Position numbers and translations under genes: made by a program
Assembly (NCBI GenBank): GCA_016190245.1
Contig: JACPQY010000024.1
Span: 121,620-185,619, forward strand
Reading direction: 5' to 3'
Source: Nitrospirota bacterium
Lineage (GTDB): Bacteria; JACPQY01
DNA: 64,000 bases
In this document: in pieces, positions 9,701 to 22,166 of the stretch
Layout: each line of letters starts with the position of its first letter
How positions within the stretch are numbered: the stretch's first letter is position 1
Notes under the pieces: model-generated
Seen by the model: the letters and a program-made list of their open reading frames with translations, nothing else
Told to the model about the DNA's origin: nothing
Database searches by the model: none

Positions 9701-10157
9701 CCTCGCTCAAGTGGAAGTGTACGACCCTGCCTCGGACACGTGGGCTGCCCTTCCCCCCCTGCCCAGCCCGCGCTGGCAGGCGGCCGCAGTGGTCGCGAAC
9801 GGCAGGGTCTACGTGCTGGGCGGGCGCTACGCCAGTGCGCTGAGCCTCGTGGATGAATACAACCCGTCCGGCAACTCCTGGGCGAGCCGCCCGCCCCTGC
9901 CGACCGCGCGATACGGCCTCGCAGCCGTTTCCCTCGGGAGTCGGATCATCGCGATGGGCGGCCGGGCCGAGCAGGCCAACGGCGTGGTCGAAGAGATCAA
10001 TCTCGACGCGGCGACGCCCTGGGCCACGCGCAGCTCCATGCCGACGCCGCGCGCGTCATTCGTGGCCGTGCCCTACGCGGGCAGGATCCTCGCGGTAGGC
10101 GGCGCCGGCGCCGCACAAGTCCTGGGCGTGGTCGAGGCCTACTCGCCGCTGCCGTAG
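6711..10157 (+). CDS. Giant secreted modular protein with signal peptide, GVRAG peptide repeats, DxDGDG calcium-binding motif, Ig-like CxxC-x-LDG domain(s), fibronectin/Ig-like repeats and a C-terminal six-blade Kelch beta-propeller
   Basis: 1148 aa with a good RBS (aaggggg) before ATG 6711 and an N-terminal hydrophobic segment. Contains GVRAGVRAGIR...GVRVGVRAGVR, DLPDQDGDGVASLVEV, and SATLDCNEAACAYRCALDGAEPEPCPATL...GSHILEVRAVDPFGN. The C-terminus has six Kelch repeats (LYIVGGYSGG...VYVIGGSNGS...IIVAGGWNGS...VYVLGGRY...IIAMGGRA...ILAVGGAGA). Confidence 0.85.
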   Translation: MQWTARLGRDGAWLVFCLFSVHVANTGCDRFDGAAPKEAPPKSSADLIRLDVTIPLSPEAAAALLAVQEQDGLVADVDLNGRRAAQELPGRVEAGVRAGVRAGIRMAGAPTVKQGVRVGVRAGVRLSSGRGGGSTSPTPGSNVVLDSRSVSTGRGAGGLGLGLYTPLETQDSSSLVESPPLPALEADPPAGADEIVHHFSTSFELPTNLASDGGNRFDFRIRTERHADLILAQVSTLIRATWRDLPSASDGSGQGNTSDRARRALEISPEPLESYEVDLPDQDGDGVASLVEVATLVTVPPENGGRPLTLDEAAQAARTAGGPQVTPSQVKTAFSLLAKDLDVRTREDLNRSGTPAPATWHPVLTQADLTAPEARISVDATTLVEGSTVSATLDCNEAACAYRCALDGAEPEPCPATLALTLAPGSHILEVRAVDPFGNRSADPATAEIVVAPAPSCSSAACEESPTSSDEPPPPEPTVEFAEHPPLLSADPSARFHLTSAAPSARFACRLDTGRPFACPSTFEIKNLDDGPHTLAAGASADAAPNLFSWIVDQTPPDAGRAGHATTDGTAYHASATVFPATWTGFSDGQSGVVGFEVNLGTGNDCPGDTHPGVKVGDTDHALLTNLSLADGRKYYFCVRAVDRAGNASAWAVSSGTVVDLRPPVSVPRAPANGAKVAAVGPIGAIADDTLSGVQEVRVSIQRESDQKYWSGGWVDQESWLPVQKEETLSDAELPAWMMGESYTVRTFAIDRAGNVEPLSAQTKFVYDTAPPLFEGLAGAFAVGDSVILSWTPALDNVSAPSDMVYQICQSSTAAGCAAFTSTQVSAAGASSQVVANVPAGPGYFVVRAQDEAGNSDPNLIVRSDVAGFDVWAGRAPMPTPRTTAGGAVSGLELYIVGGYSGGAVLNTVESYNPLLDRWVARQPMPTPREGPAVAKVDERVYVIGGSNGSALNVVEVYDPQAGTWTTRAAMPTPRSHAAACALGGKIIVAGGWNGSALAQVEVYDPASDTWAALPPLPSPRWQAAAVVANGRVYVLGGRYASALSLVDEYNPSGNSWASRPPLPTARYGLAAVSLGSRIIAMGGRAEQANGVVEEINLDAATPWATRSSMPTPRASFVAVPYAGRILAVGGAGAAQVLGVVEAYSPLP

Positions 10158-10172
10158 AGCCCGGCCGGGGCA

Positions 10173-10355
10173 TCAAGACGCGTGCCGCCAGGTCCACCGC
10201 ATAGGGCCATCGGACACGAAATCGTATCGGGAGCTTGAGCTGGAGCCTCCCTGGAGTCGCTCGGCCAGCCAAAGCTTGATGATGGTTTGGCGGGTCACGC
10301 CCAAGCGCCTCGCCTCCCGGTCAAGGGACTGCACCCTCCAGGTGGGGAAGTCCAC
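10173..10355 (-). pseudogene. BrnA/CopG-family antitoxin C-terminal fragment (no plausible N-terminus)
   Basis: The minus-strand 60-aa ORF encodes ...SLDREARRLGVTRQTIIKLWLAERL, matching the C-terminal RHH region of BrnA-like antitoxins (compare the intact brnA at 21861..22166). There is no partner toxin and no N-terminal region. Confidence 0.35.
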
Positions 10356-11108
10356 TTTGACCCACTATTCCTGCCCGGGCCCGCGGGCCTTGGAACGGTC
10401 CAGAGCCTTAGCCATGTCCTCCCCTCGCTCAAAACGCCTGTCAAATTCCTTCGCTTTCATGGATCTCCATTCCCTCCTTTCGAGAGCGCCTCACGCGAAT
10501 CAGGCGCACTTTTTCGCCGCGATACGAACGACGCCCCCTCCGAATTCGCCCAACGCGTGGACCGCGAGGCCCAGCGCCGCGGCTTCGACCAAGCCCCACG
10601 TCAGGCCGTCCTGGGCGACGGCGCGCCGTGGATCTGGAACGTGGCCGACGAACAATTCCCCGGCGCCGTCCAGATCGTCGATCTCTACCACGCCAAGGGG
10701 CACCTCTCGGACGTGGCCAAGGCCAACTACGGACCGGGCAGCCACGTGGGCGCCCAGTGGGCCGAGCAGCGACACGACGAACTGGACAAGGGTGAGATGG
10801 ACGCCTTGCTGCAAGCCCTGCGCGTCCATGCCGACGCCACCGACGCGGCACGCCAGTGCCTGGACTACGTCACTCGCAACCGGAGCCGCATGCGCTACCC
10901 GGAGTTCCGCGCCCATGGCCTGTGCGTCTCCACCGGCGTCGTCGAAGCGGGCTGCAAGGTGGCCAGCGGAACGCGCCTCAAGCGCGCCGGGATGCACTGG
11001 ACCGTCGCCGGGGCCGACGCCATCATCGCCCTGCGCTGCTGCAAGTTGAGCGGCCGGTTCGAAGACTTCTGGGGACGACGATCAGCGGCGGCGGTCGCCC
11101 GCCGCTGA
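10287..11108 (+). mobile_element. ISKra4-family transposase remnant (C-terminal ~195 aa only; N-terminal two-thirds missing)
   Basis: From about 10520 the frame reads ...AVLGDGAPWIWNVADEQFPGAVQIVDLYHAKGHL...RMRYPEFRAHGLCVSTGVVEAGCKVASGTRLKRAGMHWTVAGADAIIALRCCKLSGRFEDFW, which is the conserved C-terminus of ISKra4-like DDE transposases. The upstream part of the ORF (10287-10520) is P/G-rich non-homologous sequence. No intact N-terminal region or inverted repeats were seen. Confidence 0.6.
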
Positions 11109-11142
11109 TGGGAGTATCTCACAAGTTTATCGTGCACCCCCA

Positions 11143-11285
11143 CTGACTCCTGACTGACCAGCCAAGGACGATGCCGTTCCAAGGATGACTGACGGTACCT
11201 GGAGCGCCACGAAGGCTGCGGAGGGTGCGGTACCCGCCGCAACAAACCGAGCCGGATGCGAGGTAGAGGTACGGAAGGGTACTTT
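11143..11285. repeat. Direct repeat A (left copy) bracketing the MTase-helicase cassette
   Basis: The 28-mer ctgactcctgactgaccagccaaggacg (11143-11170) is identical to 21463-21490. The tail ggtgcggtacccgccgcaacaaaccgagccggatgcgaggtagaggtacggaagggtacttt matches 21560-21620 with a few substitutions. The ~50-bp core between them diverges but keeps a ccaagga/tccttgg hairpin. Confidence 0.8.
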
Positions 11286-11323
11286 TGACACCTTCCCACT
11301 GATCTTCTACTCTCCGGCTTGCA

Positions 11324-21451: not shown

Positions 21452-21462
21452 CGGCTCATCCG

Positions 21463-21620
21463 CTGACTCCTGACTGACCAGCCAAGGACGGCCATGGTCC
21501 ATGCCGTGCCATCCTTGGCGCGGCGACATATCATGGCCCCATGCCGTCCGTGGCAAGGGGTGCGGTCCCCGCCGCAACAAGCCGAGCCGGATGCGAGGCA
21601 GAAGTACGGACGGGTACTTT
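21463..21620. repeat. Direct repeat B (right copy), 12 bp after the helicase stop codon
   Basis: Shares the identical 28-mer and the conserved tail with repeat A. The central hairpin is ccaaggacggccatggtccatgccgtgccatccttgg. Confidence 0.8.
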
Positions 21621-21689
21621 CCCGGCATTTCTGGATAGGCCCGTGTCCGATGAGCATCCTTGAGTGTGGTGCAGGCGCCCTGATGACCG

Positions 21690-21858
21690 AGCAACGCCTC
21701 CATCGCTTCCAACGGTATCCCGTGGCACCCTGGCCGCCAAGGCGCTGCCATGGCCATACCCTACACAGGCCGCATCCTCGCCTTCGGCGGCACGGCTGAG
21801 GCACAGGTTTCGGGCGCCGTCGAAGCCTACTCGCTGCTGCGGCAGAGCCCGGCCGGGG
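21690..21858 (+). pseudogene. Diverged duplicate of the last ~50 codons of the Kelch-protein gene (displaced 3-prime end / att-like repeat)
   Basis: The frame reads ...IPWHPGRQGAAMAIPYTGRILAFGGTAEAQVSGAVEAYSLLRQSPAGE, versus ...TPWATRSSMPTPRASFVAVPYAGRILAVGGAGAAQVLGVVEAYSPLP* for the Kelch gene. The 15-mer agagcccggccgggg is identical at 10156-10170 and 21844-21858. Many differences are synonymous. Confidence 0.6.
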
Positions 21859-21860
21859 AA

Positions 21861-22166
21861 TCAGGCAGAGCGCGAACGCCTCCACCGAGGGGACCTCTCT
21901 GAAACTCCCTCGTGGATGATCTCCTTCAACAGCGTCTGGTAGGGTTTCCCCAACTTCCGCGCCATGGATTTGGCTCGGGAAAGGTCCGTCTCGCTCAACC
22001 GGATGGTGATGGGTCGGGTGCGCGGCTCCAAGATCTTCCAAGGCCCGCCCAGATCGTCAGGCCCATCCCCCCTTTCGATCTCCTTCGCCAGACAACTGAG
22101 ACAGAACCACTTGAGGTCCTCGGCCTGGAAGAGAGGCGCTCTGCATTTCCCGCATGACTTCCTCAC
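21861..22166 (-). CDS. brnA: BrnA-family antitoxin (RHH/CopG-like C-terminus) with N-terminal CxxC...CxxC zinc-ribbon
   Basis: GTG start at 22166 overlaps the brnT TGA (GTGA). RKSCGKCRAPLFQAEDLKWFCLSC is the zinc ribbon and ...RPITIRLSETDLSRAKSMARKLGKPYQTLLKEIIHEGV is the BrnA C-terminal signature. Confidence 0.6.
   Translation of the reverse strand: MRKSCGKCRAPLFQAEDLKWFCLSCLAKEIERGDGPDDLGGPWKILEPRTRPITIRLSETDLSRAKSMARKLGKPYQTLLKEIIHEGVSERSPRWRRSRSA

What the first reader, a model, noticed from the sequence alone, without database searches (positions are those of the whole stretch)
10011..21863. Island is flanked by the Kelch-gene 3-prime end and a diverged copy of it (att-like direct repeat), with BrnA-family sequences at both borders
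The last ~50 codons of the Kelch protein gene (to 10157) recur after the cassette at 21690-21858. The recurrence is in the same orientation, about 80 % identical at DNA level with many synonymous changes (...PYAGRILAVGGAGAAQVLGVVEAYSPLP* versus ...PYTGRILAFGGTAEAQVSGAVEAYSLL...). An identical 15-mer, agagcccggccgggg, sits at each end (10156-10170 and 21844-21858). Directly beyond each copy, on the opposite strand, lies a BrnA-type antitoxin sequence: a fragment at 10173-10290 and an intact brnA-brnT pair at 21861-22447. This is the footprint of an element integrated into the 3-prime end of a protein-coding gene and carrying its own version of that end, as tRNA/gene-3-prime-targeting integrative islands do. 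Alternatively it reflects recombination between two paralogous Kelch-brnTA loci. Either way it delimits an ~11.7-kb acquired segment whose integrase is gone. Only a transposase stump remains.
Basis: seen in the sequence. Interest (0 to 1): 0.7.

Follow-up and report, generated by a model that had tools for sequence, protein, structure and literature searches.

The report
Integrase-less island flanked by imperfect repeats
About 11.5 kb of accessory DNA (a dead toxin-antitoxin module, a transposase stump and a restriction-modification-like defence cassette) sits just after a Kelch-repeat gene of an uncultured Nitrospirota bacterium, between two diverged 138-base copies of that gene's end, which looks like an ordinary insertion scar left with no recombinase gene in the island.

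Summary
The direct repeat is real, but shorter and less special than described. It is 138 nt, ungapped, at 10063-10200 and 21751-21888, with 100/138 bases identical. It covers the last 31 Kelch codons, the identical 15-mer and about 30 nt of a convergent antitoxin gene's end. Similarity falls to background on both sides. A 15-nt identical run is expected by chance at this identity.

The BrnA claims are reversed. The left gene is a full-length brnA with one in-frame TAG and a foreign 25-residue tail. The right pair is only weakly BrnTA-like.

X brackets the methyltransferase-to-helicase cassette exactly.

My best reading (about 0.5) is two overlapping partial copies of one Kelch/antitoxin junction around inserted DNA. 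That is a single-crossover, att-like insertion with no recombinase in the island, as in the E. coli H47 genomic island (148/144-bp repeats, 76% identical).

No close relative of the Kelch protein turned up in the protein, genome and contig searches I could run, so neither an empty site nor excision could be checked.

This is a new member of a known kind and of modest interest.

Side observation: in 6 of 62 related cassettes, accessory genes are flanked by a duplicated helicase 5' end.

The parts
6711..10157 (+). Intact Kelch-repeat gene (1148 aa, stop TAG at 10155-10157). This is the gene whose 3' end is repeated.
   Evidence: Pfam Kelch_1, E 5e-55. It is NCBI HYY13_03685 from a Nitrospirae MAG, and no homologue exceeds 39% identity.
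10063..10200 (+). K-left, the left copy of the 138-nt repeat. It covers the last 31 Kelch codons, the stop, the 15-mer (10156-10170) and 30 nt of an antitoxin-gene tail on the opposite strand.
   Evidence: The same junction is present in an independent Logan assembly (L001, identical to window 6580-10915).
10173..10460 (-). brnA pseudogene. It is full length with an in-frame TAG at 10365-10367. Residues 71-95 form a tail that does not belong to the family and reads into K-left. The junction scar lies at about 10201-10253.
   Evidence: NF047399 matched over positions 1-70 of 70 at 101.5 bits. All 12 listed plasmid homologues end at residue 70, none of the 27 covers 80% of the query, and eight of the twelve listed are annotated next to a BrnT toxin gene. 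Sequence seen.
10503..10535 (-). Remnant of the last roughly 10 codons of a brnT toxin gene (VVRIAAKKCA, then stop at 10500-10502), abutting the transposase fragment.
   Evidence: Read from the sequence. The assignment rests on resemblance to the BrnT C-terminal motif as I recall it, so it is an inference.
10536..11136 (+). 5'-truncated ISKra4-family insertion sequence: the C-terminal 45% of the transposase plus the right terminus (...TCGTGCAC).
   Evidence: NF033572 positions 236-421 of 422. 81% DNA identity to an IS copy in L032, ending about 28 nt after the stop codon.
11140..11285 (+). X-left, the left copy of the inner direct repeat. It starts 2-5 nt after the IS terminus and ends 38 nt before the methyltransferase start codon.
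   Evidence: Block 1 is 30/31 identical and block 2 is 58/64 identical.
11324..15259 (+). Eco57I/type IIG-like N6-adenine methyltransferase, a single gene interrupted by an in-frame TAG at 14723-14725.
   Evidence: Pfam Eco57I and TaqI_C. PADLOC REase_MTase_IIG, E 1e-94. The alignment to homologues runs through the stop.
15622..16759 (+). Low-GC inner module (GC3 0.51-0.54): an HTH regulator-like ORF and a 176-aa ORF.
   Evidence: phrog_1373 transcriptional regulator, E 1.6e-10. Weak PD-T4-9_C hit. GC3.
16871..18103 (+). AAA_14 / DUF4143 ATPase (PADLOC candidate PDC-S01).
   Evidence: E 4.8e-157.
18107..21451 (+). HKD (PLD) nuclease fused to a SNF2 helicase, the effector of the cassette.
   Evidence: Pfam PLDc_2, SNF2-rel_dom and Helicase_C. 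PADLOC 'HKD+Snf2', E 4e-82. More than 5000 homologues, 68-78% identical across many phyla.
21460..21620 (+). X-right, the right copy of the inner repeat. It starts 9 nt after the helicase stop codon.
   Evidence: An independent Logan contig (L025) ends inside it at 21546.
21751..21888 (+). K-right, the right copy of the 138-nt repeat. It is a Kelch 3'-end pseudogene fragment: TAG has become CAG at 21843-21845 and there are stop codons upstream. The 15-mer is at 21844-21858.
21861..22166 (-). Antitoxin-like gene with a zinc-ribbon-like N-terminus and an RHH-like C-terminus. Its last 10 codons lie inside K-right. Its GTG start overlaps the upstream gene's TGA (GTGA at 22163-22166).
   Evidence: Pfam CopG_antitoxin E 7e-5, 23.9 bits, below the cut-off of 28. 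NF047399 E 0.16.
22163..22447 (-). Toxin-like partner (94 aa, NCBI 'hypothetical protein' HYY13_03720). At best a very divergent BrnT/DUF4258-like protein.
   Evidence: No family or PDB sequence hit. Only 14 homologues among 1.84 billion representatives, and two distant ones have sub-threshold BrnT_toxin matches. Name.
22510..22604 (.). Palindromic REP-like element with a second copy at 30976-31056. It suggests that resident chromosome has resumed by this point.

Best explanation
K-left and K-right are two overlapping partial copies of one chromosomal junction: the Kelch 3' end running into the 3' end of a convergent antitoxin gene. They look like the hybrid left and right junctions of an insertion of about 11.5 kb.

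The proposed mechanism is a single reciprocal crossover (Campbell-type). One partner was the resident junction. The other was a copy about 25% diverged, carried by incoming, probably circular, DNA from the equivalent locus of a related organism. The island encodes no recombinase. The enzyme was therefore either host-provided or recombinase-independent, as shown for the E. coli H47 genomic island, or it was an integrase that has since been lost.

The inserted DNA carried a brnTA module and the methyltransferase-to-helicase defence cassette. The cassette has its own, more similar flanking repeats (X). That points to a separate, later event of the same general kind, or to a tandem duplication.

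Decay followed. An ISKra4 element landed next to X-left. A deletion then removed its left half together with most of brnT. Amber mutations hit brnA and the methyltransferase.

Shown directly: the repeats, their boundaries, the gene content and the decay. Inferred: the crossover itself, the direction of events and the enzyme.
For: 1. The repeat is 138 nt, ungapped and highly significant, and similarity drops to background on both sides.
2. The left copy ends 30 nt into an antitoxin tail. The brnA next to it carries a 25-residue C-terminal tail. All 12 listed plasmid homologues end at residue 70, and none of the 27 covers 80% of the query. K-left is therefore a cut-off piece of a junction like the right-hand one, joined by a scar to unrelated DNA.
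3. The right copy has no Kelch reading frame upstream.
4. Everything between the copies is accessory: a TA pseudogene, an IS fragment and a defence cassette. The cassette's helicase is 68-78% identical to proteins from many phyla. GC is lower over 11-23 kb.
5. No recombinase was found in the island or among the larger neighbouring genes scanned.
6. There is a documented precedent with almost the same numbers. The H47 island is 13 kb, has 148/144-bp repeats at 76% identity, encodes no recombinase, and excises and integrates within short identity stretches.
7. In related cassettes, accessory modules are flanked by a duplicated gene end in 6 of 62 loci, against 0-1 of 62 for control segments. Insertions that leave a displaced gene end therefore recur in this system family.
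Against: - No empty site, circular junction or related genome could be examined.
- At 72-77% identity ordinary homologous recombination is very inefficient. The longest identical run is 15 nt and is not statistically remarkable.
- The Kelch-like part of the repeat has no evident role in an attachment site.
- GC3 of the main cargo genes (0.72-0.75) is only slightly below that of resident genes (0.76-0.88). Composition is therefore weak evidence of recent acquisition.
- The stretches 10915-15021 and 21546-22576 are not covered by the independent contigs I could retrieve.
- Whole-cassette flanking repeats are not general in this family. They are significant in only 4 of 29 testable loci.
Confidence: 0.5

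Rival explanations
1. Relic of two tandem paralogous loci. The ancestor had Kelch1 with TA1 followed by Kelch2 with TA2. One replacement or deletion event then swapped everything from just after Kelch1 to near the end of Kelch2 for accessory DNA. On this view the repeat has nothing to do with how the island entered.
For: - The locus carries another large secreted protein 15 kb downstream on the same strand. It shares the N-terminal architecture with the Kelch protein (27% identity over about 365 aligned columns), and a 70-nt stretch is 70% identical at DNA level.
- Differences in the coding part lean towards third codon positions (6:6:12), as expected if K-right once belonged to a working gene.
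Against: - The two antitoxin genes are not recent duplicates. They share only 8 of 18 residues, although the adjacent Kelch ends are 73-77% identical.
- No second Kelch gene of this kind exists among 5.8 billion proteins.
- Random breakpoints in two loci of about 4 kb would rarely leave an overlap as short as 138 nt with sharp edges on both sides. This last point is my inference.
Confidence: 0.2
2. One-ended homologous capture, i.e. homology-facilitated illegitimate recombination. Donor DNA from a related genome was anchored by homology somewhere inside the Kelch gene. Its far end was joined illegitimately 93 nt before the recipient's Kelch stop. The recipient's own last 31 codons (K-right) were thereby displaced next to its native antitoxin pair.
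For: - It needs no recombinase and no identical core.
- It explains why K-right is contiguous with an apparently natural antitoxin end, while K-left is joined to brnA through a scar.
- It explains the 23-28% divergence as donor-versus-recipient divergence.
Against: - The right edge of the repeat in the left copy (10200) would then have to be a second, independent junction already present in the donor.
- A donor about 25% diverged at the gene end gives a poor homologous anchor unless upstream parts of the gene are much more similar. That cannot be checked without a relative.
Confidence: 0.15
3. Assembly artefact. The metagenome-assembled contig may join different strains or loci at repeated sequence, so that the two copies are not on one molecule.
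For: - The source is a MAG contig.
- Independent Logan contigs break inside the ISKra4 fragment (10915), inside X-right (21546) and inside the REP-like element (22576).
- The K-right junction itself is not covered by any contig I could retrieve.
Against: - Independent assemblies reproduce 6580-10915, 15021-21546 and 22576-29188 without a single mismatch.
- The K copies are far too diverged to mislead an assembler.
- The X blocks share at most about 28 identical bases in a row.
Confidence: 0.04

Closest known systems
H47 genomic island of Escherichia coli (microcin H47 system; Azpiroz, Bascuas and Lavina 2011, PMC3191183; Azpiroz and Lavina 2017, PMC5426353)
   Same: - A small island (13 kb there, about 11.5 kb here).
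- Flanked by long imperfect direct repeats (148/144 bp at 76% there; 138 nt at 72-77% here).
- No recombinase gene inside.
- The repeats contain a few short stretches of perfect identity that could host the crossover.
   Different: - For H47, excision, integration and empty sites were shown experimentally and in databases. Here nothing of the kind could be tested.
- The repeat here overlaps the coding 3' ends of two convergent genes.
- The cargo is a defence cassette and a TA module rather than a microcin system.
- The host is an uncultured Nitrospirota bacterium.
Integrase-bearing genomic islands and prophages that integrate into the 3' end of a tRNA or protein-coding gene and carry a replacement copy of that end (general knowledge of the field)
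   Same: - The target gene stays intact.
- A truncated second copy of its 3' end lies at the far border, in the same orientation.
- The DNA between the copies is accessory.
   Different: - No integrase or excisionase lies next to either border or elsewhere in the island.
- The identical stretch is only 15 nt and is expected by chance at this level of identity.
- The repeat extends past the gene into a neighbouring gene's end.
BrnT/BrnA type II toxin-antitoxin modules
   Same: - The left gene is a genuine BrnA (NCBIfam NF047399, above cut-off when read through the stop).
- Both pairs have the toxin gene first.
- The right pair has the GTGA start/stop overlap typical of such operons.
   Different: - The left module is dead: an amber codon in brnA, and brnT reduced to about 10 codons.
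- The right pair is below every family cut-off, and its toxin has only 14 detectable relatives.
BREX-related 'Type-2 BR' systems with an HKD-Swi2/Snf2 helicase effector (NAR 2026, PMC12839542), and the PADLOC candidate 'HKD+Snf2' paired with a type IIG-like methyltransferase
   Same: - A PglX/Eco57I-like N6-adenine methyltransferase is paired with a helicase that carries an N-terminal HKD nuclease.
- Accessory effectors are embedded in the locus.
   Different: - The DUF499 ATPase and DUF3780, which that paper treats as characteristic of Type-2 BR systems, were not found.
- The ATPase present here is DUF4143/AAA_14.
- The methyltransferase carries an in-frame stop.

Membership tests
H47-type integrase-less island with long imperfect direct repeats | Flanking direct repeats of roughly 150 bp at roughly 75% identity | tested here: met
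   138 nt ungapped with 100/138 identical, or 77% over 113 nt by blastn. The H47 island has 148/144 bp at 76%.
H47-type integrase-less island with long imperfect direct repeats | No site-specific recombinase encoded between the repeats | tested here: met
   Pfam, NCBIfam and PADLOC scans of the ORFs from 10.2 to 22.4 kb found only a truncated DDE (ISKra4) transposase.
H47-type integrase-less island with long imperfect direct repeats | Excision and integration products with hybrid repeats, and empty sites in other strains | not testable with these tools
   No reads were available. The Kelch protein has no close relative. Exact-protein look-ups near the right junction found nothing.
Integrase-mediated island at the 3' end of a gene | Tyrosine or serine recombinase gene at one border | tested here: not met
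   No integrase or recombinase domain in the island or among the larger neighbouring genes scanned.
Integrase-mediated island at the 3' end of a gene | Identical core shared by both junctions, beyond what the overall similarity predicts | tested here: not met
   The 15-nt identical run exists, but a run that long arises in 46% of simulated alignments at 77% per-column identity.
Integrase-mediated island at the 3' end of a gene | Target gene kept intact, with a truncated second copy of its end at the far border | tested here: met
   The Kelch ORF is intact to 10157. K-right lacks an upstream frame and its stop codon.
BrnA antitoxin (NCBIfam NF047399), left gene | Full-length profile match above the curated cut-off | tested here: met
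   Profile positions 1-70 of 70, 101.5 bits against a cut-off of 60, when the in-frame TAG is read through. It is a pseudogene as it stands.
BrnA/BrnT pair, right genes 21861-22447 | Profile matches to BrnA or CopG_antitoxin and to BrnT_toxin above cut-off | tested here: not met
   Antitoxin: 23.9 bits against 28 for PF12441, and E 0.16 for NF047399. Toxin: no hit. The only link is transitive, through two distant homologues with sub-threshold BrnT_toxin matches.
ISKra4 family insertion sequence | Complete transposase and two terminal inverted repeats | tested here: not met
   Only profile positions 236-421 of 422 are present (186 bits against a cut-off of 205). The right terminus is present and the left half is absent.
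Type-2 BREX-related (BR) system | DUF499 ATPase and DUF3780 together with the methyltransferase and the HKD-Swi2/Snf2 helicase | tested here: not met
   The methyltransferase and HKD-SNF2 helicase are present. No DUF499 or DUF3780 match appears in any cassette ORF, and the ATPase is DUF4143.

The most novel reading that the evidence does not exclude
The outer K repeat, the inner X repeat and the duplicated helicase 5' ends seen in related cassettes may all be instances of one general route that needs no integrase. Defence and toxin-antitoxin modules would travel as circles that carry a short, diverged copy of a gene end. They would insert by a host-driven single crossover at that gene end and leave a displaced stub. 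If so, gene ends, including the conserved 5' end of the HKD-SNF2 helicase, would serve as portable attachment sites for building nested defence islands.
Probability: 0.2. Interest if true: 0.55.

Novelty: new member of a known kind. Interest (0 to 1): 0.3.

Why it matters
If the reading holds, this would be a second, independent example, in a distant and uncultured phylum, of an island bounded by long imperfect repeats that lacks its own recombinase. That would support the view that such 'parasitic' mobility is not an E. coli oddity.

On the practical side, the work fixes the anatomy of the locus:
- which genes are dead;
- where resident DNA probably resumes;
- that the defence cassette is a separately bounded unit.

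The side observation may matter more than the finding itself. Stubs of the helicase 5' end flank accessory modules in about 10% of related cassettes. This gives a concrete, testable clue to how defence systems pick up embedded modules.

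Tried and rejected
1. Empty-site search.
- The genome-collection scan with the Kelch protein returned only generic Kelch-domain hits at 37% identity or less.
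- The 5.8-billion-protein search found nothing above 39%.
- Exact-protein look-ups for the right-hand genes and neighbours were either absent or gave contigs that stop at repeats.

2. X as part of the IS. Rejected: homology to a related ISKra4 copy ends 2-5 nt before X starts.

3. X as a conserved part of the defence cassette. Rejected: it is absent from homologous cassettes, and exact-pattern scans of metagenome and viral contigs found nothing.

4. X as a known RNA or a tRNA-derived site. Rejected: no Rfam match and no tRNA. The two copies share no consistent fold.

5. A remnant of a second methyltransferase start after X-right. Rejected: the alignment scores below the shuffle mean.

6. Flanking repeats as a general property of the cassette family. 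Rejected: they are significant in only 4 of 29 loci. The L030 repeats look like REP-type hairpins.

7. Composition as proof of acquisition. It is weak. The drop in GC comes mostly from second codon positions. GC3 of the main cargo genes is 0.72-0.75, against 0.76-0.88 for resident genes.

8. The 21-mer at 9185-9205, which resembles the core. The similarity does not extend, so I treat it as chance.

9. A purifying-selection signature in the repeat. There are too few differences to decide.

Full report
WHAT IS THERE

The window comes from a 230.5-kb contig of a metagenome-assembled 'Nitrospirae bacterium'. The Kelch gene is HYY13_03685. Independent Logan assemblies from three sequencing runs reproduce 6580-10915, 15021-21546 and 22576-29188 without a mismatch.

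Gene order from left to right:
- The intact Kelch gene, 6711-10157.
- On the opposite strand, a full-length brnA (10460 to 10173) with an in-frame TAG at 10365-10367.
- About 10 codons of a brnT end, 10503-10535.
- The C-terminal 45% and right terminus of an ISKra4 element, 10536 to about 11136.
- Repeat X-left, 11140-11285.
- An Eco57I/type IIG-like methyltransferase, 11324-15259, with an in-frame TAG at 14723-14725.
- A low-GC regulator-like module, 15622-16759.
- A DUF4143 ATPase, 16871-18103.
- An HKD-nuclease/SNF2-helicase fusion, 18107-21451.
- Repeat X-right, 21460-21620.
- 130 nt of unassigned sequence.
- The Kelch-end copy K-right, 21751-21888.
- On the opposite strand, a small two-gene operon, 21861-22447.
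- A palindromic element, 22510-22604, with a second copy at about 31.0 kb. It suggests resident DNA has resumed by this point.

CHECKING THE OBSERVATION

The repeat is real. The local alignment scores 101, against 23.6 +/- 2.5 for shuffles.

At a fixed offset of 11688 it is ungapped over 138 nt with 100/138 bases identical:
- 73% in the last 31 Kelch codons;
- 15/15 in the 15-mer;
- 17/30 in the following 30 nt (P about 0.002).

Identity is 24-32% on either side, which is background. At protein level 37 residues align at 57% identity, and specifically to the last Kelch blade.

The right copy has CAG where the gene has its TAG stop, and it has stop codons upstream. It is a pseudogene fragment.

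Only 5 of the 15 changed codons are synonymous. An identical run of 15 or more bases is expected in 46% of simulated 138-nt alignments at 77% identity. The 15-mer therefore carries no weight as a recombination core.

THE BRNA STATEMENTS

Left gene. Read through its amber codon, it matches the BrnA model NF047399 end to end at 101.5 bits, above the cut-off of 60. Its homologues on plasmids are 60-63% identical. Eight of the twelve listed are annotated next to a BrnT toxin gene. All twelve listed end at residue 70, and none of the 27 matches covers 80% of the query.

The window's gene carries 25 further residues. The last ten of them lie inside K-left and resemble the last ten codons of the right-hand antitoxin. 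K-left is therefore the cut-off end of a junction like the right-hand one. It is joined to an unrelated brnA through a scar at about 10201-10253.

Right pair. It has the operon layout of a toxin-antitoxin module, with a GTGA overlap. The antitoxin-like gene is below Pfam's cut-off. The toxin-like gene matches no family or solved structure by sequence. It has only 14 relatives among 1.84 billion representatives, and two distant ones show sub-threshold BrnT matches.

The two antitoxin bodies share only 8 of 18 residues. They are not recent duplicates.

A second direct-repeat pair, X, brackets the cassette exactly. It runs from 38 nt before the methyltransferase start to 9 nt after the helicase stop. 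It has two blocks, 30/31 and 58/64 identical, around a centre that does not align (52 nt in one copy, 67 nt in the other).

What X is not:
- It is not part of the IS, whose homology ends 2-5 nt before X.
- It is not a conserved part of the cassette.
- It is not a known RNA or a tRNA.
- It was not found in metagenome or viral contigs.

I cannot say what X is. It shows that the cassette is a separately bounded unit nested inside the K-bounded segment.

THE CARGO

The helicase has more than 5000 homologues. The best 120 listed are 68-78% identical. They come from Deltaproteobacteria, Verrucomicrobiota, Planctomycetota, Chlamydiota, Kiritimatiellia and Nitrospirota, among others, so it is widely exchanged.

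In the related loci I examined, the methyltransferase comes first and the helicase last, with variable accessory genes between them.

It resembles the HKD-Swi2/Snf2 'Type-2 BR' systems described in 2026. It lacks their DUF499 and DUF3780 components.

INTERPRETATION

Three features together are the signature of insertion by recombination between a resident site and a diverged copy on incoming DNA:
- the left copy is cut on its right, and the right copy is cut on its left;
- they overlap by a sharply bounded 138 nt;
- only accessory DNA lies between them.

No recombinase is encoded in the island or among the larger neighbouring genes I scanned. The closest documented case is the E. coli H47 genomic island. 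It is 13 kb, has 148/144-bp repeats at 76% identity and has no recombinase. It excises and integrates independently of RecA within short identity stretches.

I put about 0.5 on this reading. The enzyme remains open: either provided by the host or an integrase since lost.

The rivals:
- A relic of two tandem paralogous loci (0.2). It is helped by a distantly related large protein 15 kb downstream. It is hurt by the unrelated antitoxins, by the absence of any second Kelch gene and by the short overlap.
- One-ended homologous capture with an illegitimate far join (0.15).
- A chimeric assembly (0.04).

LIMITS

The decisive comparison, an island-free relative, is impossible with the data I could reach. 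The Kelch protein has no close relative in any of the searches run.

Composition is weak evidence. GC3 of the main cargo genes is 0.72-0.75, against 0.76-0.88 for resident genes. Only the 15.6-16.8 kb module stands out, at 0.51-0.54.

Whole-cassette flanking repeats are not general. They are significant in 4 of 29 loci.

SIDE OBSERVATION

In 6 of 62 related cassettes, the first 29-79 nt of the helicase gene are duplicated 0.9-4.2 kb upstream. In five of the six the duplicated stretch starts at, or 1 nt after, the helicase start codon, and in the sixth within 9 nt of it. The duplicate sits at the upstream edge of accessory genes inserted just before the helicase.

Internal control segments of the same length give 0-1 of 62.

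In L063 the stub is 77/79 identical. It flanks a Schlafen/AlbA_2 gene and an AbiEi-like gene.

The logic is the same as for K: incoming DNA carrying its own copy of a gene end and displacing the resident one. This is why I keep a broader reading open at about 0.2.

VERDICT

This is a new member of a known kind, an island without its own recombinase bounded by long imperfect repeats, and it is in an advanced state of decay. Interest is modest (0.3).

Noticed in passing
window 11140-11285 and 21460-21620: A second direct-repeat pair (X) has two blocks, 30/31 and 58/64 identical, around a centre that does not align. It brackets the methyltransferase-to-helicase cassette exactly. It is not IS sequence, not part of the cassette in other genomes, not a known RNA, and was not found elsewhere. 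Its nature is unexplained.
   Followed up: yes
L063 3484-3562 vs 7051-7129; L026 9110-9138 vs 10001-10029; L029 3176-3225 vs 7346-7395; L078 4601-4632; L108 475-520; L047 1057-1093: In 6 of 62 related cassettes, the first 29-79 nt of the HKD-SNF2 helicase gene (beginning at or within a few nucleotides of its start codon) are duplicated 0.9-4.2 kb upstream. The duplicate sits at the edge of accessory genes inserted just before the helicase. Control segments from inside the gene give 0-1 of 62. This suggests that modules enter by recombination at the conserved helicase 5' end.
   Followed up: partly
window 14723-14725 and 10365-10367: Two otherwise intact genes in the island, the methyltransferase and brnA, each carry a single in-frame TAG. 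Alignments to homologues run straight through both. TAG is also a normal stop codon in resident genes, so these look like nonsense mutations. The helicase-nuclease may therefore now lack a complete methyltransferase partner.
   Followed up: partly
window 22510-22604 and 30976-31056: A palindromic REP-like element (core TTCCCGCGAAAGCGGGAA) occurs twice in the window. An independent Logan contig ends inside the first copy.
   Followed up: partly
window 6711-10157 and 25463-29491: Two large secreted or lipoprotein-like proteins lie on the same strand. They share an N-terminal architecture, including GVRAGVRAG-type repeats and Ig-like domains (27% identity over about 365 aligned columns). Their beta-propeller ends differ: Kelch in one, FG-GAP in the other.
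   Followed up: partly
L030 3047-3172 and 13573-13699: In another Nitrospirae MAG the homologous cassette is also flanked by direct repeats of 85-130 nt at about 85% identity. These are rich in hairpins, and the left copy appears to interrupt an ORF6N-domain gene, so they may be a small dispersed repeat. L026 has a flanking repeat of about 30 nt, and L077 has a weaker one.
   Followed up: partly
window 15260-15400: A sharply AT-rich stretch (GC about 0.42) lies between the methyltransferase end and the inner regulator-like module. It may be a promoter region or a module boundary. The Logan contig L025 starts nearby, at 15021.
   Followed up: no
window 9185-9205: A 21-mer inside the Kelch gene matches the sequence around the 15-mer at 19 of 21 positions. 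The similarity does not extend, so it is probably chance.
   Followed up: yes
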